Below, one piece after another: positions 11,444 through 31,440 of a stretch of DNA of 32,000 bases (positions within the stretch are counted from its first letter, which is position 1; the number at the start of each line of letters is the position of its first letter). Origin of the DNA: Delftia acidovorans NBRC 14950 (GTDB lineage Bacteria; Pseudomonadota; Gammaproteobacteria; Burkholderiales; Burkholderiaceae_C); NCBI RefSeq assembly GCF_001598795.1, contig NZ_BCZP01000007.1, positions 120,001 to 152,000 on the forward strand, given 5' to 3'. Made by a program: the position numbers and the translations under genes. The notes under the pieces are model-generated. The model searched no databases. It was not told the DNA's origin and was given only the letters and a program-made list of their open reading frames with translations.

Positions 11444-11465
11444 TGCATGCGGGCCCTCAATGTGT

Positions 11466-11816: not shown

Positions 11817-12056
11817 TAAGCGCTTGCTTCCTGTACGAAGCTGCTTGCAGAGGCTGGAAGCGGACCGCGAGCCAGCTTTACCGTGCGATGGGCGATGGGC
11901 TCAGGCCATCGCTCACATCACTCAGCGCCGGCCTTGAGCGTTCAGGTAGACAATCCATGAGTCTAAGTTCGGCGTCTAAAAGTCCATCACAGCAACGGAG
12001 CCACCAAACGGATAAGGTTCCACCTCACGATTACCAAGACGCCGGAAGACAAACCA

Positions 12057-12350
12057 ATGATTGCCAACATTTTTCTCATCAGCATCATCGTTGTTGCCTT
12101 GGTTTTATTTTCCAGAGATCGCTACAACCACCGACGCGCTCTCAAGGTTGAGACAAGTTGGACATGCTTTCGATGTGGTGTCGAGCTTGGCCCCATGCAA
12201 TCCGTTTTCATCAAAGTCGCCGGGGCAACCGCAGGAACCAAGGCCAGAGTCTGCGAGCGCTGCGCAAAGCGCGACGTTCACATTTGGTGGACTATCGCAG
12301 CAGCATTGGGAATGCTGTTCGTCATCACGGTTTTCTTTTTGCTTGCCTAA
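12057..12350 (+). CDS. Small membrane protein with a 4-Cys zinc-ribbon loop (97 aa)
   Basis: GGAAG lies 8 nt upstream of the ATG. TM1 is IANIFLISIIVVALVLFS. The loop carries CFRC ... CERC (two CxxC pairs about 34 residues apart). TM2 is IWWTIAAALGMLFVITVFFLLA. The region is low in G+C. Confidence 0.6.
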   Translation: MIANIFLISIIVVALVLFSRDRYNHRRALKVETSWTCFRCGVELGPMQSVFIKVAGATAGTKARVCERCAKRDVHIWWTIAAALGMLFVITVFFLLA

Positions 12351-12427
12351 AATTCGCTGAATTCCGAGGCTGCTGCACGGCAGGCTTTGGCGTGAGACAC
12401 GCGCAAGACTGCCCAGGGTCGGACACA

Positions 12428-12596
12428 GACTGCAATGCCCGAGCCTGCGGCAACTCGGAAATCTCTGCCGTGTAATGTGGAGAGCGCCGTTCCTGGCCCA
12501 TGCTCCAGGACTGTGTTGCCCAGCTTGCCCCGTGCGGGCCACACGCACGGCGCCCTTCCCAAAGCGGCTATTGATAGTGTCCATGGCACGCATCAC
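12428..12596 (-). pseudogene. Y-family DNA polymerase (UmuC-like) 3' fragment, frameshifted
   Basis: The minus strand reads VMRAMDTINSRFGKGAVRVARTGQAGQ and, in a shifted frame, MGQERRSPHYTAEISELPQARA. Compare the E. coli UmuC C-terminus LMTVMDTLNAKEGRGTLYFAGQGIQQQWQMQRAMLSPRYTTRSSDLLRVK. No upstream polymerase domains are present. Confidence 0.65.
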
Positions 12597-12919
12597 CCTG
12601 CTGCGGACCCAGACGAGACCCATGCGTCTTGGCCCAACGCTGTGTTTCTGCATGCCGCCCCTGCAACGCCTAACATCTTGACACGCTTTAGGACTGCAAA
12701 GTGTCCACTCACATCCGAAAACCTTGGAACACTCTGCGCCACGCGCCGAAGAGCGAGGCAGTTCGTTGCCACGCCCCGGCCGCCGCCTGAAAGCACGCAA
12801 TGCACCCCACACCACAGGCTGCAGCCTCCACGCTGCAGCCGCCCGACCGCGCGCCCGCGAACTCCTTGCCTGCCTGCGCAGAGCCCGGCCATCTCGGCCA
12901 CGAAGCCAGGAGTTCCTTG

Positions 12920-14704
12920 ATGCCCCCCGCCATGGCCGCCTCCCTGGCGGCCGCCCTGCTGGTGGCCTGCGGGGGCGGTGGGGGCGATACGGCACCCGGT
13001 ACCGGCAATGGAGGCAACGGCGGCACGGGCACCGGCCCTGGCGGCGGAACCGGTACCGGTACGGGCACCACGGCCACCCCCGCCAGCGACGAGGAAGCCG
13101 CGCGTTTCCTGCTGCAGGCGCAGTTCTCGGCCACCGACGAGGAGATCGCAGCGCTGCGCGCCAAGGGCTACGGTCCCTGGCTGGCCGAGCAGTTCGCGCT
13201 GCCCGTGGACACCACGGGCACGGCCTGGCTGACGCAGCGCGGCTACGGCGTGGCAGAGGCCGGCACGCGCTACGACAACGTCTCGTATCCCTCCGACTTC
13301 ATGCTCTGGAGCCAGCTTTTCACGGAGCGCGACGCCGTGCGCAAGCGTGTGGCATTGGCGCTGTCGGAGATCATGGTCGTGTCCACCACGGGGCTGGAGC
13401 AGCCCTGGAGCATCTTCCTGGCCTCCGGCTACTGGGATCTGCTGAACCAGCATGCCTTCGGCAACTTCCGCACACTGTTGGAGGCCGTTACGCTCAGCCC
13501 GGCCATGGGCATCTACCTGAGCACGCGCGGCAACCAGAAGGAAGACGCCCGCAGCGGCCGCCAGCCCGACGAGAACTACGCCCGCGAGGTGATGCAGCTG
13601 TTCACCATCGGCCTCTACCGCCTCAACCCCGACGGCACCGAGCAGCGCGACGGCAGCGGCAACCGCATCGACACCTATTCGGCAGCCGACGTGAGCAACC
13701 TGGCGCGCGTCTTCACCGGCTACGACTACGACACCAGCAAGAACCAGCCCACCAACCTGAGCGGCAGCACGGTGACGGGGCTGCAGCAGGCGCTGCTGCC
13801 CATGGCCTTCAACGCCGCGCGCCATTCCACGCTGGCCGCCACTTTCCTGGGCACCACCGTGGCTGCGGGCACGTCGGGGCCAGCGGCGCTGAAGGCGGCG
13901 CTGGACACGCTGTTCAACCACCCCAACGTCGGGCCCTTCATCGGGCGACAGCTGATCCAGCGCCTGGTCACCAGCAACCCCAGCCCCGCCTATGTGGGGC
14001 GCGTGGCCGCCGCCTTCGCCGACAACGGCAGCGGCACGCGGGGCGACCTGCGCGCCGTGATCGCCACCGTGCTGCTGGACCCGGAGGCGCGCGGCGCGGC
14101 AGGGCTTGCCAGCCCCCAGTACGGCCGCCTGCGCGAGCCCATGGTGCGCTTCGTGCAATGGGGCCGCACCTTCGGGCTGCGGTCGGCACGCGGCACCTGG
14201 AAGATCGACAACCTGAGCGACCCGGCCACCCGCCTGGGCCAGAGCCCGCTGCGCTCGGGCTCGGTGTTCAACTTCTTCCGCCCGGGCTACGTGCCGCCCT
14301 CCACGCCCCTGGCCACGACGGGGCAGGTGGCGCCGGAGTTCCAGATCGTCACCGAAACCAGCGTGAGCGGCTACCTGAACTTCATGCAGAACGTGATCCG
14401 CTTCGGCTACTACGTGAACGCGCCAGACCTGCCCCAGGGCGGCAGCAGCGCGGCCAACGGCTTCGACATCACCTGCAGCTACGCCAACCTGCTGCCCCTG
14501 GTGGCCGACGCCGCCGCGCTGGTGCGCAAGGTGGCGCTGCTGCTGTCGGCAGGGCAGGTATCGGCCGCCACACAGGCGCGCATCGTGGCAGCGCTCAATG
14601 CCACGCCGGTGACGGCCACCAGCAACGCCGCCACCCAGCTCAACCGCGTGGCAGCCGCCGTGCTGCTGGTGATGGCCAGCCCCGAATATCTGGTGCAGAA
14701 GTGA
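12920..14704 (+). CDS. DUF1800 family lipoprotein
   Basis: AGGAG RBS precedes the ATG at 12920. Lipobox MPPAMAASLAAALLVAC/GG, then a G/T-rich low-complexity linker (GTGNGGNGGTGTGPGGGTGTGTGTTATP). The body carries EEAARFLLQAQFSATDEEIAALRAKGYGPWLAEQF and HPNVGPFIGRQLIQRLVTSNPSPAYVGRVAAAF, typical of DUF1800 proteins. The 40 codons upstream in the track ORF are likely non-coding. Confidence 0.85.
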   Translation: MPPAMAASLAAALLVACGGGGGDTAPGTGNGGNGGTGTGPGGGTGTGTGTTATPASDEEAARFLLQAQFSATDEEIAALRAKGYGPWLAEQFALPVDTTGTAWLTQRGYGVAEAGTRYDNVSYPSDFMLWSQLFTERDAVRKRVALALSEIMVVSTTGLEQPWSIFLASGYWDLLNQHAFGNFRTLLEAVTLSPAMGIYLSTRGNQKEDARSGRQPDENYAREVMQLFTIGLYRLNPDGTEQRDGSGNRIDTYSAADVSNLARVFTGYDYDTSKNQPTNLSGSTVTGLQQALLPMAFNAARHSTLAATFLGTTVAAGTSGPAALKAALDTLFNHPNVGPFIGRQLIQRLVTSNPSPAYVGRVAAAFADNGSGTRGDLRAVIATVLLDPEARGAAGLASPQYGRLREPMVRFVQWGRTFGLRSARGTWKIDNLSDPATRLGQSPLRSGSVFNFFRPGYVPPSTPLATTGQVAPEFQIVTETSVSGYLNFMQNVIRFGYYVNAPDLPQGGSSAANGFDITCSYANLLPLVADAAALVRKVALLLSAGQVSAATQARIVAALNATPVTATSNAATQLNRVAAAVLLVMASPEYLVQK

Positions 14705-14755
14705 CCGAACAAGCGACCGAACAGGTGACCGTCTGCAAAGCAAAGCGATATCGCC

Positions 14756-16204
14756 ATGAATTTCATCGACCCCGCCCGCCACACGCGCCGCGCATTCCTG
14801 CGCCGCAGCACGCAACTGGCCGCCGCCGGTACCGCCCTGCCCTTCGCCCTGAATCTTGCCGCGCTGGGCGAGGCCGCCGCCTTCGAGGCGAACGACTACA
14901 AGGCGCTGGTCTGCGTCTTCCTCTACGGCGGCTGCGACTACGCCAACACCGTCGTGCCCTACGACAGCACCCGCTACGGGCAGTACTCCACCATCCGCGG
15001 CGGCAACAGCGACGGCACGGCCGGTGGCATTGCCCTGGCCCGCGCAGCGCTGGGCAATACGCTGCTGCAACCCCGCACGGCGCTGGCCGGTGGCATGCAG
15101 TACGCGCTGCACCCGTCCATGACGGGCCTGGCCGGCCTCTTCAACGCGGGCCGCGCGGCGGTGCAGCTGAACGTCGGCCCGCTGCTGGTGCCGCTCACGC
15201 GGGCCCAATATGCCACCGGCGACCGGCGCAGCTACCCGCTGCCGCCCAAGCTTTTCTCGCACAACGACCAGCAGTCGGTCTGGCAGTCGCAGGGCGCCGA
15301 AGGCTCCACCGTGGGCTGGGGCGGCAACCTGGGCGACCTGGCGCTGTCGTCCAACGCCACGTCGCTCTTCACCTGCATCTCGGCCACGGGCAACGCCGTG
15401 TTTCTCTCGGGCGACCAGGCGCTGCAGTACCAGATCAGCCCGGGCGGCGCCGTGCCCATCAACGCCGTCAAGGGCGCCAACGTCTATGGATCGACCGCCG
15501 TGCGCGGCCTGCTGAGCGAGCTGGTGCAGACGGCCGGCAGCCACGCAATGGAGGCCGAGTACGCCCGCGTCACGCAGCGCTCCATCAGTGCCGAGGGGCA
15601 GATCTCTTCGGCCCTCTCCAGCGGCAGCCTGTCCACCGCCTTCCCTGCCAGCAACCCGCTGGCCGACCAGCTCAAGGTGGTGGCCCGGCTCATCGCCGGA
15701 CGCAACGCGCTGGGCACGCGCCGGCAGGTGTTCTTCGTCTCACTGGGCGGGTTCGACCTGCACGACAACCTGATCGCCAACCAGCCGCAGCTGCTCGACA
15801 AGGTAAGCAGCGCCATGACGGCCTTCTACAACGCCACGGCCGAACTCGGCGTAGCCGACAAGGTCACGGCCTTCACCGCGTCGGACTTCGGCCGCACGCT
15901 GACTTCCAACGGCGACGGCTCGGACCATGGCTGGGGCAGCCACCACTTCGTCGTGGGCGGCGCGGTGCGTGGCGCGTCCTTCTATGGCGCGCCACCGCCC
16001 ATCAGCGTGGGCAACGGCAGCGGCAGCGAAGACCAGTGGCATGTCGGCCAGGGGCGCCTGTTGCCCAGCACCGCCGTGGACCAGTACGCCGCCACCCTGG
16101 CGCGCTGGTTCGGCGTGGCGAATACCGAGCTGGCGGGGGTGCTGCCGCACATCGGCAACTTCGGCGGCTCGGCGTATCCCATCGATCTGGGGTTCATGGG
16201 CTGA
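14756..16204 (+). CDS. DUF1501 family protein (sulfatase/alkaline-phosphatase-like fold), Tat-exported
   Basis: Twin-arginine signal HTRRAFLRRSTQLAAAGTALPFALNLAAL. Also LGGFDLHDN, FTASDFGRTLTSNGDGSDHGWGSHHFVVGGAVRGASFYG. This is the usual partner immediately downstream of a DUF1800 gene. Confidence 0.88.
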   Translation: MNFIDPARHTRRAFLRRSTQLAAAGTALPFALNLAALGEAAAFEANDYKALVCVFLYGGCDYANTVVPYDSTRYGQYSTIRGGNSDGTAGGIALARAALGNTLLQPRTALAGGMQYALHPSMTGLAGLFNAGRAAVQLNVGPLLVPLTRAQYATGDRRSYPLPPKLFSHNDQQSVWQSQGAEGSTVGWGGNLGDLALSSNATSLFTCISATGNAVFLSGDQALQYQISPGGAVPINAVKGANVYGSTAVRGLLSELVQTAGSHAMEAEYARVTQRSISAEGQISSALSSGSLSTAFPASNPLADQLKVVARLIAGRNALGTRRQVFFVSLGGFDLHDNLIANQPQLLDKVSSAMTAFYNATAELGVADKVTAFTASDFGRTLTSNGDGSDHGWGSHHFVVGGAVRGASFYGAPPPISVGNGSGSEDQWHVGQGRLLPSTAVDQYAATLARWFGVANTELAGVLPHIGNFGGSAYPIDLGFMG

Positions 16205-17207: not shown

Positions 17208-18317
17208 TTATGATGTTCCGCGCAGTGGAGGGGCAAGTCGGCGGGCCTTGCCTTTTGGAATGCAATATGAGTTGACATATATTGCAGTATTCCTCAACGA
17301 CTGGCGCATATCCGGCTTTGCGATTCCGTGCCTTTGGGCAAATTGCTCCACTTCCGTCGTGTCAAAACGGGTTGTCTGGATAAAATCCAGGGCCTCGGCG
17401 CTGGTATTCAAAAACCTCGCCATGGGACGAATACCCAAAAGCCATTTCAGCAATCTCAGCGGAATATGATGCCCGGGCGCCTTCAGCCCAAGAGATTGGG
17501 CCACCTGCTTCAGGAGTTCCTGCAAGCCGGGGCTCTGGGCATCGAGGGCCAGCAGTTCCTGGCCCACCATGGAAGGATCAAAGGCGCAAGCCGCCACCAA
17601 CTCGACCAGATAATCCACAGTGACCAGTGGCAACCAGTGCGCGGCAGTACCGGGTACTGCAGCCAGCTTTCCCTGCACCAGATTGCGTATCAGATCCACC
17701 AGTGGCTGGCCATCCGCTATATGCCCCGTGCGGCTATGACCGCAAACCGTGGCGGGGTGTACAACGATCATCTCTCCACCCTTGGCATTCATGAAGCTGA
17801 GGGTCGCGAAGTGCGCCTCCAGTTTGCTCGCCTCGTAAGCACCGACTTGGCGATAGATGGCAGGCCAATCCGTCAGCTCCGGATGGCCGGGATCAATCCC
17901 TATGCGTTGCAGATGTTCATTGTTTTTCAGCATGTAGCCACCAATCATCACCAACCGGCTCTCTTGCTCGGCCGCCAACTGCGCCACACGCCTTGCCCCT
18001 TCCACATTCACTGCACGTGCATGCTCCATCGAAAGGCCCCAGGCGAAGTGGGCTCCCAGATGGAATACGACCTTGGCCTGCCTCAGGACCTCTCTATCCG
18101 CATGGCTCAGACCGAGGTTTTCTTGCTCCAGATCGCCGGCTACGGCAAAGACGCGGGCTGCGACGCCACCCAAACCATCGACCTGCTGGCGCAGTTCAGC
18201 GAGGCGCTCCGGGCGACGCATCAGTACCCGAATGGTGTGACCTTTCGCGCTCAGGTACGACAGCAAATGCTGGCCGATGAAGCCCGTCCCTCCCGTAACA
18301 AAGCACTCCACGCTCAT
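17208..18317 (-). CDS. NAD(P)-dependent epimerase/dehydratase-type SDR oxidoreductase
   Basis: An internal ATG gives MSVECFVTGGTGFIGQHLLSYL (the TGxxGxxG motif). The catalytic YxxxK is present as YEASK. The 40 codons upstream in the track ORF overlap the MerR promoter. Confidence 0.82.
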   Translation of the reverse strand: MSVECFVTGGTGFIGQHLLSYLSAKGHTIRVLMRRPERLAELRQQVDGLGGVAARVFAVAGDLEQENLGLSHADREVLRQAKVVFHLGAHFAWGLSMEHARAVNVEGARRVAQLAAEQESRLVMIGGYMLKNNEHLQRIGIDPGHPELTDWPAIYRQVGAYEASKLEAHFATLSFMNAKGGEMIVVHPATVCGHSRTGHIADGQPLVDLIRNLVQGKLAAVPGTAAHWLPLVTVDYLVELVAACAFDPSMVGQELLALDAQSPGLQELLKQVAQSLGLKAPGHHIPLRLLKWLLGIRPMARFLNTSAEALDFIQTTRFDTTEVEQFAQRHGIAKPDMRQSLRNTAIYVNSYCIPKGKARRLAPPLRGTS

Positions 18318-18348
18318 TTTTCTGCTCCTTGGCACGATGAAAAAACCA

Positions 18349-18380
18349 AGTGTAGACTGTCGACTCAACTCTACAGTCAA
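18349..18380 (-). promoter_or_regulatory. MerR-type long-spacer promoter/operator for the SDR operon
   Basis: The minus strand reads TTGACT (18380-18375), then a 20-nt spacer, then TACACT (18354-18349). The spacer contains the dyads TGTAGA-N13-TCTACA and GACTGT/ACAGTC. It sits between the divergent MerR and SDR genes. Overlong 19-20 bp spacers are the hallmark of MerR-activated promoters. Confidence 0.5.
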
Positions 18381-18392
18381 GCGATTTTTTCC

Positions 18393-18782
18393 ATGAATAT
18401 CGGGGAACTTGAGGTCCGCAGCGGCGCCACGCGCCATACCTTGCGCTATTACGAGAAAATCGGCCTTATTTCACCCTTGCGGCGAACCAACAATTATCGC
18501 GTTTACACACCGCAAACCCTGCAAGACCTGGACTTTATCCAGCGGGCACAAAGCATGGGATTTTCTCTTGGGGAAATAGGCGAAATTCTGAATGCTCAGA
18601 GAAACAAGTCAATAGATTGCGCCGGGGGTGCAAGACTGATTGAAAAGAAGATGGCGGAAATCAAAAAGAAAATCACTGACCTCAAAAGCATTTATCGGTA
18701 TTTGGATGCGGAGCGCGCAAACCTTGAAGCCAGTGCGGCCAGGCAACTTGAGCTTCAGCGACTCAATGACTCCTCCAATTAA
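18393..18782 (+). CDS. MerR family transcriptional regulator
   Basis: This is the last 130 codons of track ORF 17328..18782. MNIGELEVRSGATRHTLRYYEKIGLISPLRRTNNYRVYTPQTLQDLDFIQRAQSMGFSLGEIGEIL is the canonical MerR HTH, followed by a coiled-coil. The rest of that long ORF is antisense to the SDR gene. Confidence 0.88.
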   Translation: MNIGELEVRSGATRHTLRYYEKIGLISPLRRTNNYRVYTPQTLQDLDFIQRAQSMGFSLGEIGEILNAQRNKSIDCAGGARLIEKKMAEIKKKITDLKSIYRYLDAERANLEASAARQLELQRLNDSSN

Positions 18783-22837: not shown

Positions 22838-23012
22838 TTTGAGAGCTTCCAGCCAATGACTTGGCACTGTCCATGGTGAGGAGCCTCCCTCCCGGACATG
22901 GGAGGCGAGAGCGTCAGCGACGGCCATGCAAGCACGGTACTTCCACACCTTGTGGCGCATACTACCCAAAAGCAATTTCCATACATGAACCCATACGTTG
23001 CCGCTTAAATCC

Positions 23013-24395
23013 ATGCAAGATGAGCCTTTGCCCCTCTGGTTGCCGCAACTGGCCGTGCAGGGCGGCCCCCGATTCCTGCAGATCGCCGATGCCTTGCAGG
23101 CAGCCTTGGCAGACGGATCGCTGAAGCCCGGTGACCGCCTGCCCCCACAACGCCGGCTGGCGGCCCAGCTGGATGTGGACCTGACGACGGTCACGCGCGC
23201 CTACGATGAAGCCAGGCGCCGCCAGCTGCTGGAGGGACGCGGCGCCAGAGGCACCTATGTCGCGGCGCCCAAGGTGGAGCTCAACGCCGTGCTGGACCTG
23301 AGCATGAACACCCCGCCACCGCCGGCTGGCGTGGACCTGGACGACATGTTGAAGCAGGGCCTGTCGCAAGTGCTGATGGGTGCGGATGCCCAGTTGCTGA
23401 TGACCTACCACCTGGGTGGGGGAAGCGACTCCGACCGCAAGGCGGGCGCCAGGTGGCTGCAGCCCATGTTCGGAGATGTGGATGCACGGCAGTTGGTGGT
23501 CTGCCCGGGCGCGCAGGCGGCGATTGCCGCCCTGGTGCTTGCGCTGACGGAGCCTGGCGATGTGATCCTGACCGAGCCCACCAGCTATCCCGGCCTGCGT
23601 GCCGCAGCGGCCCAGTTCGGCCGGCGCATCATTGCGGTGCAAGCGGACAGCCAGGGGATCATGCCCGAGCGGCTTGAGCAGGCATGCCGACAGCACAGGC
23701 CCGGGCTGGTCTACCTGAACCCCACGCTGCAGAACCCGACCGCCATCACGCTTGCCGAGGACCGGCGCCAAGAGATCGCCAGCATCGCAAAGCGCTGCCA
23801 TGTGCGCATCGTCGAGGACGATCCCTACTGGCTGCTGGCCGATGCCCCGCCGCCGCCGATCGCCAGGTTTGCCCCGGAGCAGGTGTACTACATCTCCACC
23901 CTCTCCAAATGCCTGACGCCCGGTTTGCGGGTGGCCTTCGTGCTCCTGCCTGACCCGCACGAGCGCCAGCGTTTCCTGGTCGCGCTGAGATCGTTTGCGC
24001 TGATGGCCACGCCGCTGACGGCCGCCCTGGCCACGCAGTGGATCCTCGACGGCTCGGCCGGAAAATTGATGGAAGGTGTGCGCAAGGAGGCGCGCCTGCG
24101 CCACCGGATGGCCAGGGATGTGCTGGCCGGTCGGTACAGCGGCGCGGGAGACGGCCTGCATGTATGGCTGGAGCTGCCGAGTTACTGGAGCCCGTCGCAG
24201 CTTGCGCGTGCCGCCGACAGCGAGGGCATCGCCGTCACGCCGGCGCAGGCCTTCGCCACCGGCAGCGAATCAGTGAATGCCATCCGCATCTCCCTGGGCA
24301 GCATCAAGGACCGTGGGCGCCTGCAGGCGGGCCTTCAGCGGCTGTCGCATCTGCTTGCGCGCCTGCCCGAGTCGTTCAGCGCCGCCGTGGTTTAG
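23013..24395 (+). CDS. MocR/GabR-type regulator (GntR HTH fused to a PLP aminotransferase-like domain)
   Basis: N-terminal FLQIADALQAALADGSLKPGDRLPPQRRLAAQLDVDLTTVTRAYDEARRRQLLEGRGARGTYVA is a GntR wHTH. The C-terminal domain of about 350 aa has fold-type I aminotransferase features (YLNPTLQNPT, STLSKCLTPGLRVAF). ATG at 23013; TTG at 22998 is an alternative. Confidence 0.85.
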   Translation: MQDEPLPLWLPQLAVQGGPRFLQIADALQAALADGSLKPGDRLPPQRRLAAQLDVDLTTVTRAYDEARRRQLLEGRGARGTYVAAPKVELNAVLDLSMNTPPPPAGVDLDDMLKQGLSQVLMGADAQLLMTYHLGGGSDSDRKAGARWLQPMFGDVDARQLVVCPGAQAAIAALVLALTEPGDVILTEPTSYPGLRAAAAQFGRRIIAVQADSQGIMPERLEQACRQHRPGLVYLNPTLQNPTAITLAEDRRQEIASIAKRCHVRIVEDDPYWLLADAPPPPIARFAPEQVYYISTLSKCLTPGLRVAFVLLPDPHERQRFLVALRSFALMATPLTAALATQWILDGSAGKLMEGVRKEARLRHRMARDVLAGRYSGAGDGLHVWLELPSYWSPSQLARAADSEGIAVTPAQAFATGSESVNAIRISLGSIKDRGRLQAGLQRLSHLLARLPESFSAAVV

Positions 24396-24525
24396 CGGTT
24401 CAGCGCGTATCGAGGCGTGAGGCGTGAGGCGTTGCGCCGATGGGTTGCCACAACGGCTCAAGGCGCCCGGCAACCCGGGGGGTGCACGCCTTTGAAAGCA
24501 GGCCTTGGCATGGCTCGCTGGCCGT

Positions 24526-25242
24526 TCAAGGCTCCAGAGCAAAGTCCACCGCCGCCTGCGCATGCAGGGCGGTGGTATCCAGCACGGGCACAGGGCAATG
24601 CTCCTGCTGCACCAGCAGGCTGATTTCCGTGCAGCCCAGCACCATGGCCTGCGCACCCTGCCCGGCCAGCTGCGCCATGATGCGCTGATACGTGCGCCGC
24701 GACTCTTCAAGAATCCGGCCTGTGCACAGTTCCTCGTAGATGATGCGGTGCACCTCGGCGCGGTCTGCCTCCTGCGGCAACAGCACCTCCAGACCCTGCT
24801 GCTGCAGCCGCTCGCGCATGAAGGGCTGCTCCATGGTGAAGCGTGTGCCCAGCAGCCCCAGCTTCCGGTAGCCGCGTGTGCGGGCTGCGTTGGCTACCGG
24901 GTCGGCAATGTGAAGAAAAGGGATGCGCACCGCTGCCGCAATGCGGTCTGCCAGCTTGTGCATGGTGTTGGTGCACAGCAGCACGCCGTCCGCCCCGCCC
25001 TGCTGCAGCCGCCGCGCGGCATCCTCCAGCAAGGCGGCGGCGTCGTCCCATCGGCCTTCATGCTGGGCCTGCTCGATGGGGCCAAAATCCACGCTGTACA
25101 TGAGCAGTTTTGCGGAGCGCAGCGGACCCAGCCTGTCACGCACGCCTTGATTGATGAGCCGGTAGTACTCGGCGCTGGACTCCCAGCTCATGCCACCGAT
25201 GAGACCGATGACGCGGTGAATTTCCGTGGGGTTTGAGTTCAT
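24526..25242 (-). CDS. Aspartate/glutamate racemase family protein (aspartate racemase-like)
   Basis: 238 aa. VIGLIGGMSWESSAEYYRLIN and VLGCTEISLL are present (the two Cys-containing racemase motifs are GGMS.. / GCTE..). Confidence 0.82.
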   Translation of the reverse strand: MNSNPTEIHRVIGLIGGMSWESSAEYYRLINQGVRDRLGPLRSAKLLMYSVDFGPIEQAQHEGRWDDAAALLEDAARRLQQGGADGVLLCTNTMHKLADRIAAAVRIPFLHIADPVANAARTRGYRKLGLLGTRFTMEQPFMRERLQQQGLEVLLPQEADRAEVHRIIYEELCTGRILEESRRTYQRIMAQLAGQGAQAMVLGCTEISLLVQQEHCPVPVLDTTALHAQAAVDFALEP

Positions 25243-25337
25243 GCCCGCAGTGTGGGCAGCGGCCGATTTCGCGTCTATCAGGAAATTTCAGTTCAGGAAT
25301 GCAAGGCAAGGCAAGGGCCATACAAGGCAATACAGCG

Positions 25338-26132
25338 ATGACAGATCACGAACCACCGGGCTTCGAGGTGCAGCTGCTGGGCCGCACGCCCTACAGCAGC
25401 CATGACCCGACCCGCCTGCATTCGCTGGGCATCGCGCTGGAGCGCCAGCAGGGCGTGCATGCCATTGCCAGCGATCGCCGCGTCGACTTCGATACCTGGC
25501 CCGGGACGGTGGCATGCACGCCGCCGGGCGTCGACGTGTTTTCCGAATCGGCCACGGGCGGCGAGTACCTGGTGGTTCGCTGCACCCAGGCGCATTGGGA
25601 ACAATGGCTCAGCGAGGGAGCGTCTGCAACCCAGGCACGGCGCGTTGTGACGCCCGGGCAGCGCAGCGCCTTGCAGATTGCGCACCAACTGCGCCAGCTG
25701 CTGCTGAGCACCGAACCGGACACGCTGGCCATCGAGCAGGCCGCGCTGTGCTTCATGGCCCGGCAATGCCATGCGTCCACCGCCCGCGTCGAGGCCTTGC
25801 GCCCCGTGTACCGCCCTGTCCTGGAGCGCATGGCGGCCGAGTTTGCGCAGCCGTTGAGCATTGCCCAGCTGGCCCGGATGGTCCAGCGCACGCCGCTGCA
25901 GTTTCTGCGCGAGTTTTCCCAGCTGCTGGGAATGACGCCGCATGCCTTTCTTGTGGAAACCCGCGTACAGGCGGCCCGCTCCATGATGCGGGCAGACGCC
26001 CATTCCCTGGCGGGTATCGCCCACGATTGCGGCTTCAGCCATCAGTCGCACATGGGCGTCGCTTTCCGCAAGACTCTGGGACTGACTCCCCGCCAGTACC
26101 TGGCCCGCATGCGTCACACGGGCAAGCAATGA
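25338..26132 (+). CDS. AraC family transcriptional regulator
   Basis: The C-terminal double HTH reads LSIAQLARMVQRTPLQFLREFSQLLGMTPHAFLVETRVQAARSMM...LAGIAHDCGFSHQSHMGVAFRKTLGLTPRQY. The ATG at 25338 is the internal start of the track ORF. Divergent from the racemase gene. Confidence 0.85.
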   Translation: MTDHEPPGFEVQLLGRTPYSSHDPTRLHSLGIALERQQGVHAIASDRRVDFDTWPGTVACTPPGVDVFSESATGGEYLVVRCTQAHWEQWLSEGASATQARRVVTPGQRSALQIAHQLRQLLLSTEPDTLAIEQAALCFMARQCHASTARVEALRPVYRPVLERMAAEFAQPLSIAQLARMVQRTPLQFLREFSQLLGMTPHAFLVETRVQAARSMMRADAHSLAGIAHDCGFSHQSHMGVAFRKTLGLTPRQYLARMRHTGKQ

Positions 26133-28084: not shown

Positions 28085-29194
28085 ATGGAAGTTTTGCAGC
28101 AACTCGAACCCCTCATGCGCGAGATCATCGCGCCCCAGGCCGCGCAGATTGACGAGCAGGCGCGCTACCCGCGCGCAGCGCTGGATGCGCTGGCCGCAGC
28201 CGGCCTGCTGGGCCTGATCAGCGCCAGCGAGGTGGGTGGGCGGGGCAAGGGCCTGGCCGAGGCGGTACAGGTGATCGAGCGCATTGCCCAGGACTGCCCC
28301 TGCACGGCCATGGTGCTGACCATGCACTACTGCGGCGTGGCACTGATCGAGCCCTTTGCCGATGACGCGGTGCGCCGCGACATTGCCGCCGGCCGCCACA
28401 TCACCACGCTGGCCGTGTCCGAGGCGGGATCGCGCAGCCATATCTGGGCGCCCACGGGCACGGCCACCGCCGCTGAAGATGTCATCCACCTGAATGCGCT
28501 CAAGAGCATGATCACCTCGGCCGGCGAGGCCGATTCCTATGTCTGGATCTCGCGCGCCACGCAGGGCGAGGGCAATACGCTATGGCTGGTGGACAGCCGC
28601 CTGCCGGGGCTGTCCATTCCCGGGCGCTTCAACGGCATGGGGCTGCGCGGCAATGCCTCCTCGCCCATCGAGGCGCGCGATGTGGGCGTGCCGCGCGCCC
28701 GCATGCTGGGCGCCGATGGCGAGGGCGAGGCCGTGAAGGGCCGCCACCTGATGCCGTTTTTCCCCACGCTGATCGCCACCACCTCCATCGGCCTGATGCA
28801 GGGCGCACTGCGCCGCGCCGTGGCCCATGTGGCGGGCACGCGCTTTGCGGAAAGCGGCAGCTCGCTGGCCGACCTGCCCACCATCCGCGCCTACCTGGCC
28901 CGCGCCCAGCTGCGCCTGGAGCAGGCGCGCCTGCTGCGCGAAGACACCGTGGCCGCCGTGCAGGCCGCCCGCCCCGACACGCGCACGCGCCTGCTGCAGA
29001 CCAAGGCCGCCGCCGCCGAAGCCGCGCTGGAGGTGACCGACATTGCCATGCGCGTGTGCGGCGGCGCCGCCTTCCGCAAGGAGCTGGGCATAGAGCGCCT
29101 GTTCCGCGATGCGCGTGCCGCCTCGGTCATGGCGCCCACCACCGACGTGATCTACGACATGCTCGGCAAGGCCATGTGCGAAGCCGCTGCCTGA
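28085..29194 (+). CDS. Acyl-CoA dehydrogenase-fold flavoprotein (non-canonical; lacks the C-terminal catalytic Glu)
   Basis: 369 aa with ACAD-like layout: IDEQARYPRAALDALAAAGLLGL, VSEAGSRSH, GMGLRGNASSPIEARDVGVP, ERLFRDARAASVMAPTTDV. The last segment aligns with MCAD RDAKIYQIYEGT, and Ala350 replaces the catalytic Glu. Confidence 0.8.
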   Translation: MEVLQQLEPLMREIIAPQAAQIDEQARYPRAALDALAAAGLLGLISASEVGGRGKGLAEAVQVIERIAQDCPCTAMVLTMHYCGVALIEPFADDAVRRDIAAGRHITTLAVSEAGSRSHIWAPTGTATAAEDVIHLNALKSMITSAGEADSYVWISRATQGEGNTLWLVDSRLPGLSIPGRFNGMGLRGNASSPIEARDVGVPRARMLGADGEGEAVKGRHLMPFFPTLIATTSIGLMQGALRRAVAHVAGTRFAESGSSLADLPTIRAYLARAQLRLEQARLLREDTVAAVQAARPDTRTRLLQTKAAAAEAALEVTDIAMRVCGGAAFRKELGIERLFRDARAASVMAPTTDVIYDMLGKAMCEAAA

Positions 29195-29257
29195 ACCTGC
29201 GCCGCAGATCCTGTCGATAGCCTCAATCCCCTTCCCCATCCAGCAAAGGACTTCCGA

Positions 29258-30124
29258 ATGACGACAACCGCCCCTGTGATCAAGCTCGGCGCCGTGGCCT
29301 ACGCCCCCAAGGTGATCACCATCTGGGAAGGCTTCAAGGCGTATTTCATCGAGCGCGGCTACTACTTCGACTACGTGCTCTATTCCAACTACGAGTCGCT
29401 GACCGAGGCGCTGATCGCAGGCGATGTGCACCTGGCCTGGAACTCGCCGCTGGCCTTTGTGCGCGCCGACCGCATGGCCCGCGCGCGCGGCCTGCGCGTG
29501 GAATCCATCGCCATGCGCGATACCGATCTGGACCTGCATTCGCTGCTGGTCGTGCCCGCCGACAGCCCCATCCAGAACGTGCAGGACCTGCGCGGCAAGA
29601 CCGTGGGCTTCGGTGCGGTGGACTCGCCCCAGGCCACGCTGATCCCGCTGGACCATCTGCGCCAGGAAGGGCTGGTGGCCGGGCGCGACTACACGGCACG
29701 CCGCTTTGACGTGCTGGGCGGCAAGCACGGCGACCACATTGGCGGCGAGCGCCTGGCCGCCGCCGCCATGGTGGCCGGCGAGATACAGGCTTCATGGATG
29801 GTGGGTAAGAACTACCTGGCCTTTGCGCGCGAAGGCACGCTGCCGGCAGGCGGCACGCGCGTGCTGGCCACCTCGGGCGCGTTCGACCACTGCAACATGA
29901 CGGCCGGCCCGCACATCGATGCGGAACGCGCCGCCGCCTTCCGCGACATCCTGCTGGCCATGTCCTGGGACGACGCGGCCGTGCGCCCGCTGCTGGAGCT
30001 GGAAGGCCTGAAGGTCTGGCACCCAGGCCGCGGCACGGGCTACAGCCTGCTGGAGCGCGCGGTGACGGACGAGGCCTTCTACGACGCCGAAGGCCGCATC
30101 ACCGTGCAGGACTACCGTTACTGA
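29258..30124 (+). CDS. PhnD/SsuA-like periplasmic-binding-fold protein without a signal peptide
   Basis: MTTTAPVIKLGAVAYAPK begins directly with the first beta-strand. YESLTEALIAGDVHLAWNSPLAFV and VVPADSPIQNVQDLRGKTVGFGAVDSPQATLIPL match the phosphonate-binding (PhnD-like) family pattern. There is no hydrophobic leader or lipobox. Confidence 0.75.
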   Translation: MTTTAPVIKLGAVAYAPKVITIWEGFKAYFIERGYYFDYVLYSNYESLTEALIAGDVHLAWNSPLAFVRADRMARARGLRVESIAMRDTDLDLHSLLVVPADSPIQNVQDLRGKTVGFGAVDSPQATLIPLDHLRQEGLVAGRDYTARRFDVLGGKHGDHIGGERLAAAAMVAGEIQASWMVGKNYLAFAREGTLPAGGTRVLATSGAFDHCNMTAGPHIDAERAAAFRDILLAMSWDDAAVRPLLELEGLKVWHPGRGTGYSLLERAVTDEAFYDAEGRITVQDYRY

Positions 30125-30132
30125 CACGCGCC

Positions 30133-31386
30133 ATGGCCATGCCTGATTCCGACAGCGGCACCCTGCCCGCCTCCACCCTGCCTGTCATCGACCTGCAGGG
30201 CCTGGGCTTCGATGCCGGTGCCCATCTTCTGGTCAAGCACGCGCTGGCCGCCCTGCCCGTGGGCGGGCAGCTGCGCGTGACCGGCAGCGCGCCGGGCTGG
30301 CAGGCCCAGCTGTCGGGCTGGTGCAGCGACCAAGGCCACGGCCTGCGCTGGGAGGACGGCGCGGGTGCAGCACAGGCCATGGCCATCGTGGCGCGCGGCA
30401 GCGCGCAGTCCGGGCGCTGGCGTGGCGCGGCGCAGACGGGCCGCAGCGATGCACGCGCGGGCGGCGATGCCGTGGCCGCGCAGGCCCAGCCTTTCTGGGG
30501 CCTGGCCGCGCGTGGCGCGCAGGTGGAAGCCGGGGCGCCGGCCTTCCATTTCCGGCTCAGCGACAAGCTGCAGGTCTGGACCGACAGCGCCGCCGACCTC
30601 TACGCCCAGGCCGTGGCCGCGCAGTGGAATGCCGATACCGACATCGACTGGTGCGATGCACCCGAGCTCCCCGCACCCGTGGAAGACGCCATCGTCCAGC
30701 TCATGACCTACATGGTGGAGAACGAGAACGCGGCCCTGCTGGTGCCTGCGCGCTTTCTGGGCCAGCTGCACCCGCACTACCGCGAGCTGCAGGCGGCGCT
30801 GGCCATCCAGGTGGCCGACGAGGCGCGGCACATCGATGTCTTCACGCGCCGCATCCGCCGCCACGGCCGCGAGCCCGCCCTGTCCACGGCGGGCGGCCAG
30901 GCCTCGCTCAAGAGCCTGCTGGACGAGACGGATTTTTCCGTGGCGGGCTTTTTGCTGTCGGTGCTGGGCGAAGGCACCTTCGTGCACCTGCTGCAGTTCC
31001 TGCAGACCGAGGCGCCCGACCCCCTCACACGCCAGATCTGCCGCCTGGCCGCGCGCGACGAGGCGCGCCATGTGGCCCTGGGCATGTCCCACCTGCTGTA
31101 CCGCCTGCAGCACGAGCCCGGCTTCCAGCACCAGCTGGCCCAGGCCGTGGAGCAGCGCTTCGACAACCTGGCCGGCACCTCGGGCCTGAACGAGGAAGTC
31201 TTCGACGCCCTGATCCTCATCGCCGCCGGCGCCCTCACCCCCGAAGCCCTGGCCCGCGGCGCCGCCCGCGTGCAGCAGCTCATGCGCGACATGGCCGACG
31301 GCCGGTTTTCCAAGCTGCTGCGGCTGGGGTTTGAGCGTGGGCATGCGGAGCGGCTGGCTTCGCTGCATACGCGCAATTTCATGTAG
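30133..31386 (+). CDS. Fusion protein: Cys-less TusA/SirA-like domain + ferritin-like diiron-carboxylate domain
   Basis: The N-terminus VIDLQGLGFDAGAHLLVKHALAALPVGGQLRVTGS parallels TusA LD.RGL.CP.P....K.AL, but Phe26 replaces the Cys. The C-terminal four-helix-bundle signature is E196/E198 (VENENA), E230xxH233 (ADEARH), E280 (LGEGT) and E310xxH313 (RDEARH). The start lies 8 nt after the PhnD-like stop. Confidence 0.75.
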   Translation: MAMPDSDSGTLPASTLPVIDLQGLGFDAGAHLLVKHALAALPVGGQLRVTGSAPGWQAQLSGWCSDQGHGLRWEDGAGAAQAMAIVARGSAQSGRWRGAAQTGRSDARAGGDAVAAQAQPFWGLAARGAQVEAGAPAFHFRLSDKLQVWTDSAADLYAQAVAAQWNADTDIDWCDAPELPAPVEDAIVQLMTYMVENENAALLVPARFLGQLHPHYRELQAALAIQVADEARHIDVFTRRIRRHGREPALSTAGGQASLKSLLDETDFSVAGFLLSVLGEGTFVHLLQFLQTEAPDPLTRQICRLAARDEARHVALGMSHLLYRLQHEPGFQHQLAQAVEQRFDNLAGTSGLNEEVFDALILIAAGALTPEALARGAARVQQLMRDMADGRFSKLLRLGFERGHAERLASLHTRNFM

Positions 31387-31440
31387 GCACGAGAAACGGA
31401 CCCGATGCCCGGTGCCCGATCGCCACAGGAACAGCGCCGG

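What the first reader, a model, noticed from the sequence alone, without database searches (positions are those of the whole stretch)
28085..31386. Uncharacterised three-gene putative oxygenase operon: ACAD-fold flavoprotein + leaderless PhnD-like protein + TusA-like/diiron fusion
Three same-strand genes are separated by only 63 and 8 nt, which suggests one operon. Each product departs from its canonical family: a dehydrogenase fold without its catalytic base, a 'periplasmic' binding fold with no export signal, and a sulfur-carrier fold without its cysteine fused to a diiron centre. I cannot place this combination in any characterised pathway. A flavin enzyme plus a diiron enzyme plus a small-molecule-binding scaffold is the kind of set used for oxidising or tailoring a small metabolite (N-, S- or C-P chemistry are all possible). 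No transporter, regulator or CoA-ligase gene is attached. A GAF-EAL gene lies upstream and a convergent RTX gene downstream.
Basis: partly seen in the sequence, partly recalled or inferred. Interest (0 to 1): 0.72.

Follow-up and report, generated by a model that had tools for sequence, protein, structure and literature searches.

The report
Conserved flavin–diiron trio linked to selenium
Three tightly packed Delftia genes (an unusual flavoprotein, a signal-less binding-protein look-alike and a TusA-like/diiron oxygenase-like fusion) form a module conserved across many bacterial phyla that repeatedly sits inside or beside the genes for selenophosphate, selenocysteine and selenouridine, so it is a strong new candidate for an unknown step in bacterial selenium metabolism.

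Summary
Three + strand ORFs lie at 28085-29194, 29258-30124 and 30133-31386, with gaps of 63 and 8 nt. g1 is an ACAD-fold protein whose catalytic Glu motif YEGT is replaced by an invariant MAPT. g2 is a PhnD/PtxB-fold protein with no signal peptide and a remodelled His/Asp/Cys pocket. g3 joins a weak TusA-like domain lacking the CPxP cysteine to a ferritin-like diiron domain (E..DExRH..E..DExRH).

The trio is a real, self-contained module. It is colinear in about 75 of 80 species genomes from many phyla and in 41 of 41 testable metagenome contigs.

New here: the only recurrent neighbours are selenium genes. selA, selB or selD occur within 7 kb in 16 of 81 loci (about 0.5 expected). tRNA-Sec accounts for 11 of the 14 tRNAs found. 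SelU, NifS-type desulfurases and a GrdB selenoprotein gene also appear. In Variovorax the trio sits between selA and selB with gaps of 35 and 13 nt. The linkage replicated in metagenomes (7 of 80).

Best reading: an O2-dependent flavin/diiron complex that processes or delivers selenium for SelD. The selenium link is likely (about 0.7). The chemistry is inferred only. No accessible paper or NCBIfam model describes it. Delftia itself shows the trio without sel neighbours.

The parts
28085..29194 (+). g1: ACAD-fold flavoprotein (369 aa) without the catalytic glutamate; sister of the Rv1679/FadE16 family
   Evidence: Pfam N/M/C ACAD domains pass. NF049984 scores 345 bits against a cutoff of 600. 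YEGT aligns to MAPT. M349/P351/T352 are invariant and A350 >=90% conserved, and the ACAD signature loop is altered to SEAGSRSH (S112/S116/R117 invariant, E113/G115/S118/H119 >=90%).
29195..29257 (+). 63-nt g1-g2 spacer with AAAGGA ribosome-binding site about 8 nt before the g2 ATG
   Evidence: Read directly from the sequence. No terminator-like site lies in this spacer.
29258..30124 (+). g2: cytoplasmic PhnD/PtxB-fold protein (288 aa) with a remodelled pocket (W61, R87/D88/D90, D122-S-P-Q-A, H157-G-D-H-I-G-G-E-R, D210-H-C212)
   Evidence: PF12974 scores 112.7 bits. NF049985 scores 207 bits against a cutoff of 400. Mean column identity is 65% across phyla with the listed invariant residues, and there is no leader. 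The profile alignment to PtxB 5o2j and 5jvb shows the oxyanion loop replaced and a 7-aa insertion.
30133..30408 (+). g3 N-terminal TusA-like domain (about residues 14-92) lacking the CPxP cysteine (F26, invariant G29); the WCxxGH motif is kept
   Evidence: Pfam TusA E 0.034. The profile hits TusA/YhhP 1dcj and 3lvj over their full length at E 0.07-0.09. The AF2 topology is b-a-b-a-b-b with high pLDDT. Two homologues carry a precomputed PF01206 hit and JGI names one 'TusA-related sulfurtransferase'.
30409..30624 (+). g3 linker (about residues 93-164), low model confidence but with the conserved motif WGLAARGAxVE (R127 and E132 invariant)
   Evidence: pLDDT is below 50 for residues 96-110 and 140-161.
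30625..31386 (+). g3 ferritin-like diiron domain: E196/E198, D229-E230-x-R232-H233, E280, D309-E310-x-R312-H313; strictly conserved C-terminal tail HT(R/K)NFM
   Evidence: Ligand residues are invariant. Foldseek matches ADO 4rc6 (TM 0.82), ADO-like 6d9f (24% identity), R2lox, VlmB and PaaA. The tail is conserved in 152 of 155 loci.
31397..31411 (-). Short terminator-like hairpin in the 54-nt gap between the g3 stop and the stop of the convergent RTX gene
   Evidence: Consensus scan only; weak evidence.

Best explanation
The three genes encode one obligate cytoplasmic enzyme complex that belongs to selenium metabolism. Most likely it converts a selenium compound into the form that selenophosphate synthetase (SelD) uses, or hands it over, in oxygen-living bacteria.

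Shown:
- The trio is inherited as a unit across phyla.
- It is the partner of selD, selA, selB, tRNA-Sec, selU, NifS-type desulfurases and selenoprotein genes far more often than chance allows.
- g3 has an intact carboxylate-bridged diiron site of the O2-activating type.
- g1 is a flavoprotein fold that cannot perform the classical acyl-CoA alpha,beta-dehydrogenation.
- g2 is an intracellular binding-protein fold whose phosph(on)ate site has been rebuilt with invariant His, Asp and Cys residues.

Inferred working model:
- g2 captures the small selenium species in its cleft, with C212 and the His cluster as chalcogen or metal ligands.
- The g3 diiron centre and the g1 flavin carry out the redox step. 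This is either an O2-dependent cleavage or oxidation that frees Se from an oxidised or organic form, or a flavodiiron-like reduction.
- The cysteine-less TusA-like domain of g3 acts as a docking module toward an IscS/NifS-type desulfurase or SelD, not as a persulfide or perselenide carrier.
- The conserved C-terminal tails hold the three subunits together.
For: Module:
- g1-g2-g3 is colinear on one strand in nearly all of 80 species genomes spanning Beta- and Gammaproteobacteria, Myxococcota, Acidobacteriota, Actinomycetota, Chloroflexota and Planctomycetota, and in 41 of 41 testable metagenome loci.
- No other neighbour occurs in more than 11 of 81 loci.
- Mean column identity is 65-72% for all three families, the termini are conserved, and g2-g3 read-through fusions P0161 and P0164 exist.

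Selenium link:
- The recurrent neighbours are SelB, SelA, SelD and FDH/FdhE.
- Among 149 nearest genes SelB is the top Pfam family of 168.
- tRNA-Sec lies within 7 kb in 11 loci, and only 3 other tRNAs were found.
- 16 of 81 loci carry selA, selB or selD against 0.46 expected (P 1e-19; P 3e-8 if only 8 independent arrangements are counted).
- The trio is embedded as selA-[trio]-selB-tRNASec in Variovorax and Rubrivivax, with gaps of 35 and 13 nt.
- selD-trio operons occur in Actinomycetota (L052, L054, L059), and selD abuts g3 in L006.
- SelU/MnmH lies beside selD in L006 and L021, and a homologous fragment lies in L018.
- NifS/IscS-type genes follow g3 in L065, L076 and L075, and a GrdB selenoprotein gene lies in L075.
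- The linkage replicated in metagenomes: 7 of 80 loci.
- Strains that can be checked in a published survey are Se users: Delftia SPH-1 and Cs1-4, Ideonella B508-1, and Frankia BMG5.12 (one of only 3 of 11 Frankia).

Enzymology:
- The diiron ligands are invariant and the fold matches ADO, R2lox, VlmB and PaaA.
- The g1 catalytic base is missing family-wide, and g1 is replaced by another FAD monooxygenase-like gene in L055.
- SirA/TusA-like proteins (YedF) are already known as SelD-associated (PMC5322559; bioRxiv 10.1101/2022.04.13.486033).
Against: - In Delftia itself, and in about 80% of loci, no sel gene lies within 7 kb.
- Genome-wide co-occurrence with selD could not be computed. Only four strain-level matches were checked.
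- Delftia SelD did not appear among the top 120 relatives of the L006 SelD.
- No trio protein contains selenocysteine.
- No substrate, cofactor content or complex formation is demonstrated, and the direction of the redox chemistry is unknown.
- An O2-activating oxygenase is an odd way to produce reduced selenide.
- The related Rv1679/Rv1680 pair is named after M. tuberculosis genes; from memory, that organism is not a selenium user.
- FDH genes are also enriched nearby (9 loci), so part of the signal could be FDH-related.
- The g2 structure could not be modelled (pLDDT 33), so the clustering of its invariant residues in the cleft rests on alignment to PtxB only.
Confidence: 0.45

Rival explanations
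1. The trio is a formate- or C1-producing oxidative catabolic module. The diiron oxygenase cleaves a small bound substrate, in the way ADO releases formate or as in oxidative methylphosphonate cleavage. The real partner is then formate dehydrogenase, and the sel genes appear only because that FDH is a selenoprotein.
For: - FDH subunits or FdhE lie within 7 kb in 9 loci, three of which (L042, L065, L076) have no sel gene in range.
- The g3 fold is closest to aldehyde-deformylating oxygenases.
- g2 has a phosphonate-binding fold.
- The surveyed Delftia and Ideonella strains carry a single selenoprotein each.
Against: - The direct, operon-like junctions are with selA, selB and selD, not with FDH genes.
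- L006 has trio-selD with convergent selU and no selA, selB or FDH homologue within 7 kb.
- L052, L059, L067 and L075 have sel genes and no FDH within 7 kb. L075 carries a GrdB-type selenoprotein instead.
- NifS-type genes sit next to g3.
- The phosph(on)ate-binding loop of g2 is not conserved.
- ADO is the minimal ferritin-like fold, so the match is not specific.
Confidence: 0.15
2. It is a selenium homeostasis or detoxification device rather than a supply route. The O2-dependent diiron and flavin pair oxidises surplus reactive selenide or selenols held by g2, which protects aerobic cells that run the SelD pathway.
For: - The same selenium linkage applies.
- Oxygenase or oxidase chemistry fits oxidation better than reduction.
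- The trio is found mostly in lineages I know as aerobic (lifestyle from own knowledge).
- The held literature stresses the toxicity of reactive selenium under oxic conditions (PMC13188914).
Against: - Being embedded between selA and selB, and directly after selD, is more typical of a biosynthetic helper than of a detoxifier.
- No efflux or methyltransferase genes accompany it.
- Organisms with a single selenoprotein need only trace selenium, so surplus selenide should be rare.
Confidence: 0.15
3. One reading: a stand-alone tailoring pathway for an unrelated small metabolite, such as N-oxygenation or N-N bond chemistry like the valanimycin enzymes VlmH (ACAD fold, from own knowledge) and VlmB (diiron), or S- or C-P chemistry. 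The selenium neighbourhood would then be coincidental or regulatory.
For: - VlmB is among the structural matches.
- g3 barely passes the AurF Pfam model.
- g1 resembles ACAD-fold monooxygenases (SfnB, DszC, HsaA) at low scores.
- Most loci have no sel genes nearby.
Against: - No biosynthetic, carrier-protein, ligase or export genes recur nearby.
- The neighbourhood is otherwise random (168 Pfam families among 149 neighbours), while sel genes are enriched about 35-fold in at least 8 different arrangements and in an independent sample.
- The extreme sequence conservation across phyla is unlike secondary-metabolite tailoring enzymes.
Confidence: 0.1
4. It is a maturation factor for molybdenum or selenium enzymes: a TusA-type sulfur-relay relative acting with IscS on the molybdenum cofactor or Fe-S centres of formate dehydrogenase.
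For: - The TusA-like domain is present.
- IscS/NifS-type neighbours occur.
- FdhE and FDH genes are adjacent in Burkholderiales loci.
Against: - The persulfide-carrying cysteine is absent family-wide.
- A diiron oxygenase and an ACAD-fold flavoprotein have no known role in cofactor sulfuration.
- Linkage to selD and selU occurs without FDH.
Confidence: 0.07

Closest known systems
Rv1679 (FadE16) family ACAD + Rv1680 family SBP-like protein (NCBIfam NF049984 / NF049985), adjacent genes of M. tuberculosis, function unknown
   Same: They are the best-scoring families for g1 and g2 over their full length (E 4e-103 and 4e-61), and they show the same pairing of an ACAD-fold protein with a signal-less PhnD-like protein. 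The only functional comment I found in the held papers is a fold-based guess that Rv1680 is a phosphonate transporter component (PMC8562490).
   Different: All trio members tested, including actinobacterial ones, score below the curated cutoffs: 341-399 against 600, and 197-228 against 400. They are a sister pair, not members. g3 has no NCBIfam family. From memory, the third Mtb gene (Rv1681, moeX) is not a TusA/diiron protein; I could not check this here.
SelD-associated selenium trafficking candidates YedF (SirA/TusA-like + DsrE-like), YedE, DUF3343 and Sec lyase
   Same: They are defined by recurrent placement next to selD, selA and selB, and they include a TusA/SirA-like domain (PMC5322559; 10.1101/2022.04.13.486033). 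The trio shows the same kind of linkage, plus NifS-type neighbours.
   Different: YedF keeps the CPxP cysteine and a CGxC DsrE domain. g3 lacks the cysteine and is fused to a diiron domain. No ACAD-fold or PhnD-fold partner is described in those papers. The trio lineages (Burkholderiales, Actinomycetota, Myxococcota) are mostly aerobic by my own knowledge, whereas the examples those papers give (Slackia, Coprococcus, Lachnospiraceae) are gut anaerobes.
Ferritin-like diiron oxygenases and oxidases: aldehyde-deformylating oxygenase, R2-like ligand-binding oxidase, AurF/CmlI N-oxygenases, VlmB azoxy synthase, PaaA
   Same: It shares the four-helix-bundle core and the E / ExxH / E / ExxH ligand set, with a structural match at TM 0.5-0.8 and Foldseek E about 1e-4.
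   Different: Sequence identity is only 14-24%. No PDB relative is detectable by sequence. It has a unique DExRH doublet, an HPH motif, an N-terminal TusA-like domain, a conserved linker and an invariant C-terminal HTxNFM tail. No reductase partner of the usual ferredoxin type is present.
PhnD / PtxB / HtxB periplasmic phosph(on)ate- and phosphite-binding proteins (PF12974)
   Same: It has the same fold family. The profile scores E 3e-14 to PtxB 5o2j and to the phosphonate-binding protein 5jvb, and the pocket histidine (H157) is retained.
   Different: There is no signal peptide and no ABC permease or ATPase partner. The oxyanion loop ASTSSH is replaced by VDSPQAT. There is a 7-residue insertion (GDHIGGE), and the YPQY segment is replaced by YDHC. 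By analogy only, and from my own knowledge, a PF12974 member (AioX) binds the metalloid arsenite through a cysteine.
ACAD-fold enzymes without dehydrogenase chemistry (3-sulfinopropanoyl-CoA desulfinase; group D flavin monooxygenases SfnB, DszC, HsaA)
   Same: It has the ACAD fold with the catalytic glutamate missing, and it gives weak full-length hits to these families (E 1e-32 to 1e-10).
   Different: Scores are far below every cutoff. No flavin reductase gene accompanies the trio.

Membership tests
Acyl-CoA dehydrogenase (classical, alpha,beta-dehydrogenating) | Three-domain ACAD fold (Pfam N, M and C domains) | tested here: met
   PF02771 scores 51 bits, PF02770 42 bits and PF00441 72 bits, all above their gathering scores. 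There are 59 PDB ACAD matches.
Acyl-CoA dehydrogenase (classical, alpha,beta-dehydrogenating) | Catalytic glutamate base (YEGT motif, or the IVD/LCAD helix-G position) | tested here: not met
   YEGT aligns to MAPT. M349/P351/T352 are invariant and A350 >=90% conserved in 20 orthologues. I read the alternative position by eye from the alignment, using the IVD sequence from memory, and it shows no Glu.
Rv1679 family ACAD (NF049984) | Score at or above the curated cutoff of 600 bits | tested here: not met
   345 bits for Delftia and 341-399 bits for other trio members.
Rv1680 family SBP-like protein (NF049985) | Score at or above the curated cutoff of 400 bits | tested here: not met
   207 bits for Delftia and 197-228 bits for others.
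PhnD/PtxB phosphonate or phosphite ABC substrate-binding protein | PF12974 domain | tested here: met
   112.7 bits against a gathering score of 27.
PhnD/PtxB phosphonate or phosphite ABC substrate-binding protein | Export signal or lipobox and an adjacent ABC permease/ATPase | tested here: not met
   The N-terminus runs straight into strand 1 in all orthologues. There are no ABC genes next to the trio in Delftia and none recur elsewhere. TIGR03431 PhnD scores 52 bits against a cutoff of 261.
PhnD/PtxB phosphonate or phosphite ABC substrate-binding protein | Ser/Thr-rich oxyanion-binding loop (S-T-S-S) | tested here: not met
   It aligns to the invariant D-S-P-Q-A-T.
TusA/SirA sulfur carrier (PF01206) | Pfam gathering score | tested here: not met
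   14.4 bits against 28.6. The profile scores only E 0.07-0.09 to TusA structures. Two homologues do carry the precomputed hit.
TusA/SirA sulfur carrier (PF01206) | CPxP active-site cysteine | tested here: not met
   By my own alignment of the E. coli TusA sequence (from memory) to the family consensus, the position is F/L/M and the second Pro is an invariant Gly (G29).
TusA/SirA sulfur carrier (PF01206) | Two-layer beta-alpha-beta-alpha-beta-beta fold | tested here: inconclusive
Ferritin-like diiron-carboxylate oxygenase/oxidase superfamily | E...ExxH...E...ExxH ligand set on a four-helix bundle | tested here: met
   E196/E198, E230-H233, E280 and E310-H313 are invariant. The fold matches ADO, R2lox, VlmB and PaaA. 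Metal content is not testable here.
AurF-type N-oxygenase (PF11583) | Pfam gathering score and full-length match | tested here: inconclusive
   30.6 bits against 29.6, covering only profile positions 98-215 of 282. Many homologues have no precomputed AurF hit.
Known SelD-linked selenium accessory genes (YedE, YedF, DUF3343, SclA, SenA/B) | Sequence membership in one of those families | tested here: not met
   NCBIfam returned no match to any of these families for g1-g3 at E <= 0.1, and Pfam returned none either.
Known SelD-linked selenium accessory genes (YedE, YedF, DUF3343, SclA, SenA/B) | Recurrent genomic linkage to selD, selA or selB in distant lineages | tested here: met
   16 of 81 genome loci and 7 of 80 metagenome loci, in at least 8 arrangements.
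Known SelD-linked selenium accessory genes (YedE, YedF, DUF3343, SclA, SenA/B) | Genome-wide co-occurrence with selD | tested here: inconclusive
   Four of four strains that could be looked up in the 2016 survey are Sec users. A full phyletic profile was not computable with the capped scans.

The most novel reading that the evidence does not exclude
The trio is a previously unrecognised, oxygen-dependent selenium-activation complex. It would be the missing physiological route that captures selenium, discriminates it from sulfur and hands it to selenophosphate synthetase in aerobic bacteria. It would use a binding-protein fold as an intracellular chalcogen-holding subunit, a diiron centre, and a base-less ACAD flavoprotein in chemistry with no described precedent.
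Probability: 0.3. Interest if true: 0.9.

Novelty: new variant of a known kind. Interest (0 to 1): 0.76.

Why it matters
How bacteria specifically deliver trace selenium to SelD, in the presence of a vast excess of sulfur and of oxygen, has been an open question since SelD was characterised. The candidates proposed so far (NifS-like lyases, rhodanese, YedE/YedF, DUF3343) come largely from anaerobes.

A three-protein module in at least 550 species, whose only consistent genomic partners are selD, selA, selB, selC and selU, gives a concrete candidate in genetically tractable organisms (Delftia, Variovorax, Streptomyces). It would also assign a first biological context to three sizeable 'domain-only' protein families, and by extension to the unexplained Rv1679/Rv1680 pair of mycobacteria. 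It could also reveal new diiron/flavin chemistry on a chalcogen substrate.

Tried and rejected
- **Selenoprotein hypothesis for the trio itself:** no in-frame TGA aligns to a conserved Cys. The few stops are frameshift-like noise in MAGs.
- **Known RNA elements or riboswitch upstream:** no Rfam match in the window. No convincing promoter or terminator was found.
- **Plasmid-borne copies with curated annotation:** none.
- **Sequence search of g3 against PDB:** only spurious hits. The N-domain profile hits to MBT-repeat proteins are a short WCxxGH motif coincidence.
- **First locus search with the 16-sequence alignment:** failed because there was no conserved stretch. It was repeated with 9 sequences.
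- **Literature:** searches for Rv1679/Rv1680, moeX, selenium comparative genomics, selD genome mining, and TusA-like/ferritin-like terms found no description of the trio. Haft & Tolstoy 2025 (mSystems) could not be opened, so prior art there is not excluded.
- **A conserved C-terminal Cys relay in g1:** rejected, because the position is C or T.
- **SelD of Delftia:** not seen in the top 120 relatives of the L006 SelD, which is uninformative. The published survey lists Delftia as a Sec user.

Full report
**1. The observation.**
The window is Delftia (acidovorans/tsuruhatensis group). g3 is 94-99% identical to more than 100 Delftia proteins annotated only as 'ferritin-like domain-containing protein'. 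ORFs lie at 28085-29194, 29258-30124 and 30133-31386 on the + strand, separated by 63 and 8 nt. They share a GC3 of 0.89-0.90, and g2 has an AAAGGA ribosome-binding site. Upstream is a GAF-EAL gene and downstream a convergent RTX-repeat gene. Every descriptive element of the finding is confirmed.

**2. The three proteins.**

g1 has all three ACAD Pfam domains and many solved ACAD relatives at E 1e-32. The catalytic motif IYEGTSEI of short-chain ACAD aligns to VMAPTTDV. M349/P351/T352 are invariant and A350 is at least 90% conserved in 20 orthologues from many phyla. The ACAD signature loop is also changed, to SEAGSRSH. So g1 is a flavoprotein fold that cannot do the classical dehydrogenation. 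Its best named family is NCBIfam 'Rv1679 family ACAD', but at 345 bits against a cutoff of 600.

g2 is a PF12974 protein (112.7 bits). Its best NCBIfam family is 'Rv1680 family SBP-like protein' (207 bits against a cutoff of 400). It has no leader, since all orthologues begin at strand 1. It is remarkably conserved, with 65% mean column identity from Proteobacteria to Chloroflexota, and carries the invariant motifs AWNSPLA, MRDxDxD, GAxDSPQA, HGDHIGGER and DHC. A family profile aligns to the phosphite- and phosphonate-binding proteins PtxB 5o2j and 5jvb (E 3e-14). That alignment shows the Ser/Thr oxyanion loop replaced, a 7-residue insertion after the pocket histidine, and YPQY replaced by YDHC. 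g2 therefore has the PhnD fold but not a PhnD site. The His/Asp/Cys set looks like a metal or chalcogen site or a catalytic site.

g3 has no sequence relative in the PDB. The family alignment shows invariant E196/E198, D229-E230-x-R232-H233, E280 and D309-E310-x-R312-H313. An AlphaFold model (pLDDT 77.6, pTM 0.81) has three parts: a beta-alpha-beta-alpha-beta-beta N-domain (residues 18-90), a low-confidence but sequence-conserved linker, and a helical bundle. The bundle matches aldehyde-deformylating oxygenases (TM up to 0.82), R2-like ligand-binding oxidase, the azoxy synthase VlmB and PaaA at 14-24% identity.

The N-domain is TusA-like only weakly. Pfam gives E 0.034. A family profile matches E. 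coli TusA/YhhP over its full length at E 0.07-0.09. Two homologues carry the precomputed TusA hit, and JGI calls one a TusA-related sulfurtransferase. By my own alignment of the E. coli TusA sequence (from memory), the CPxP cysteine is replaced by F/L/M and the second proline by an invariant glycine. The extreme C-terminus HT(R/K)NFM is conserved in 152 of 155 loci, and g1 also has a conserved tail.

**3. Is it a unit?**
A scan of one genome per species found at least 554 loci. In the 80 fetched, g1-g2-g3 are colinear on one strand in essentially all. The exceptions are:
- one order swap (Luteimonas, L014);
- four loci without the ACAD (L055, L066, L075, L080), one of which (L055) has an unrelated FAD monooxygenase-like gene in the g1 slot.

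In an independent metagenome sample, all 41 loci with enough upstream DNA have the colinear trio. No other gene accompanies it in more than 11 of 81 loci. Two family representatives are g2-g3 read-through fusions.

**4. What the neighbours say.**
Clustering the flanking ORFs showed that the most recurrent neighbours are SelB, SelA, SelD-type AIRS proteins, formate dehydrogenase subunits and FdhE. The quantified evidence is:
- selA is present in 12 loci, selB in 11 and selD in 10, and 16 of 81 loci have at least one.
- tRNA-Sec lies within 7 kb in 11 loci, while only three other tRNAs occur in all flanks.
- Among the 149 nearest genes, which hit 168 Pfam families, SelB is the most frequent family, and SelD, SelA and class-V aminotransferases also recur.
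- A conservative null (every genome Sec-positive, 5 Mb, two sel clusters) expects 0.46 loci. That gives P 1e-19, or 3e-8 if only eight independent arrangements are counted.

The arrangements differ between lineages:
- fdh-fdhE-selA-[trio]-selB-tRNASec in Variovorax and Rubrivivax, with gaps of 35 and 13 nt and a GGAG site before g1;
- selA-selB-tRNASec-[trio] in Ideonella and Thiothrix;
- [trio]-selD with convergent selU in a Comamonadaceae genome, where selD starts no more than 25 nt after g3;
- selD-[trio](-selA) in Microtetraspora, Streptomyces and Parafrankia;
- convergent selA-selB-tRNASec-(selU)-selD clusters in Luteimonas and Novimethylophilus.

An Actinomycetota MAG (L075) has a divergent GrdB-family selenoprotein gene, a NifS-type gene, and selD-selA-selB-tRNASec around g2-g3. 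NifS/IscS-type desulfurase genes follow g3 directly in two Streptomyces loci. The linkage replicated in metagenome contigs: 7 of 80 loci in only 339 kb of flank.

Strains that can be looked up in a published survey of selenium traits (PMC5029168 supplements) are all selenocysteine users. These are Delftia acidovorans SPH-1 and Delftia sp. Cs1-4 (one selenoprotein each), Ideonella sp. B508-1, and Frankia sp. BMG5.12, which is one of only 3 of 11 Frankia with SelD, SelA and SelB.

In Delftia itself the trio has no selenium neighbour. The rest of the window encodes unrelated functions.

**5. Mechanism.**
Shown: an obligately co-inherited set consisting of a flavoprotein, an intracellular binding-protein fold and a diiron protein, functionally coupled to the selenophosphate hub.

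Inferred:
- g2 holds a small selenium species in its rebuilt cleft.
- The g3 diiron site and the g1 flavin perform the redox conversion.
- The cysteine-less TusA-like domain docks the complex to an IscS/NifS-type enzyme or to SelD. For comparison, 3lvj, one of the TusA hits, is by my own knowledge the IscS-TusA complex.
- The conserved tails mediate assembly.

Linkage to selD and selU without FDH (L006), and to a GrdB-type selenoprotein (L075), argues that the partner is SelD and selenium in general rather than formate dehydrogenase. I rate the selenium link at about 0.7 and the specific supply-to-SelD model at about 0.3-0.45. The direction of the chemistry (oxidative release versus reduction versus protective oxidation) is open.

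**6. Comparison with what is known.**
The nearest named families are the uncharacterised Rv1679/Rv1680 pair. All trio members fall below their cutoffs, including a Mycobacteriales MAG, so the trio is a sister system.

SirA/TusA-like proteins (YedF), YedE, DUF3343 and Sec lyases are the known SelD-associated candidates. None of the following mentions an ACAD-, PhnD- or ferritin-like partner: the selenium comparative-genomics papers, the 2022 and 2026 reviews, the selD genome-mining preprint that found the sen cluster, or the Haft selenoprotein preprint. One possibly relevant paper (Haft & Tolstoy 2025) could not be read. NCBIfam (June 2026) has no model for g3.

**7. Verdict.**
The new element is a strong, replicated genomic link to selenium utilisation. 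It is best classed as a new variant among SelD-associated accessory systems, built from known folds in an undescribed combination.

The limits are:
- no genome-wide co-occurrence test;
- no model of g2 or of the complex;
- no experiment;
- the Delftia locus itself carries no selenium gene.

Noticed in passing
L006:2623-3630(-), L021:8205-9080(-), L022:3755-4855(+), L036:1764-2903(+): A transglutaminase-like (PF01841) gene of about 370 aa recurs inside or beside sel/trio clusters, for example between selA and the trio in L022 and between selA and selB in L036. It has no NCBIfam model. A 'transglutaminase-like enzyme' is also listed among YedF-associated genes in Lin et al. 2015. It may be another unrecognised selenium-linked gene.
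   Followed up: partly
window 9200-12800: A stretch of about 3.6 kb has lower GC (0.56-0.60, against 0.65-0.70 around it). It contains only small ORFs with no Pfam match, plus a DUF4113 (ImuB/UmuC C-terminal) fragment in ORF 12105-12992(-). It looks like degraded or foreign DNA or a non-coding region. There is no Rfam match.
   Followed up: partly
L055:4566-5981(+); L014:5036-8221; L066, L075, L080: Variants of the module exist. In a Streptomyces genome (L055) the ACAD slot is filled by an unrelated FAD-dependent monooxygenase-like gene. Luteimonas (L014) has the order g2-g1-g3. Three loci have g2-g3 without any ACAD, and in L066 an ArsR-family metalloregulator fused to an AHSA1 domain lies upstream.
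   Followed up: partly
L075:3505-5820(-): An Actinomycetota MAG carries a GrdB-family selenoprotein B fusion gene. Its ORF stops at profile position 345 of 431, which would fit an unrecognised in-frame Sec UGA (the expected position is from memory). It lies next to a NifS-type gene and selD-selA-selB-tRNASec.
   Followed up: partly
L006:9385-10785(-), L021:10497-11453(-), L018:14892-15197: tRNA 2-selenouridine synthase (MnmH/SelU) genes lie next to selD in L006 and L021 (NCBIfam, above cutoff), with a homologous fragment at the end of L018. These loci therefore form compact 'selenium islands' containing selA, selB, selC, selD, selU and the trio.
   Followed up: yes
window 12800-16204 (+): An adjacent DUF1800 / DUF1501 gene pair of unknown function has very high GC3 (0.91-0.92).
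   Followed up: no
window 17208-18782: Two long ORFs overlap on opposite strands. The minus-strand ORF (17208-18437) is a NAD_binding_4/epimerase-type reductase. The plus-strand ORF (17328-18782) has a MerR domain only at its C-terminal end, so the true MerR gene is probably much shorter.
   Followed up: no
window 22998-26132: A regulator-rich stretch just upstream of the GAF-EAL gene contains a MocR-type GntR/aminotransferase-fold regulator, an Asp/Glu racemase on the opposite strand, and an AraC-family regulator whose start overlaps the racemase start region.
   Followed up: no
L019, L028, L046: The record titles assign these MAG contigs to Bifidobacterium, Heliomicrobium and Spirochaetaceae, but they carry a trio 53-59% identical to the Delftia one. 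L028 also has selA. The taxonomic labels may be binning errors.
   Followed up: no
P0161, P0164 (metagenome proteins): Single predicted proteins join the C-terminal part of g2 to g3. They are either natural fusions or read-through calls at the very short g2-g3 junction.
   Followed up: partly
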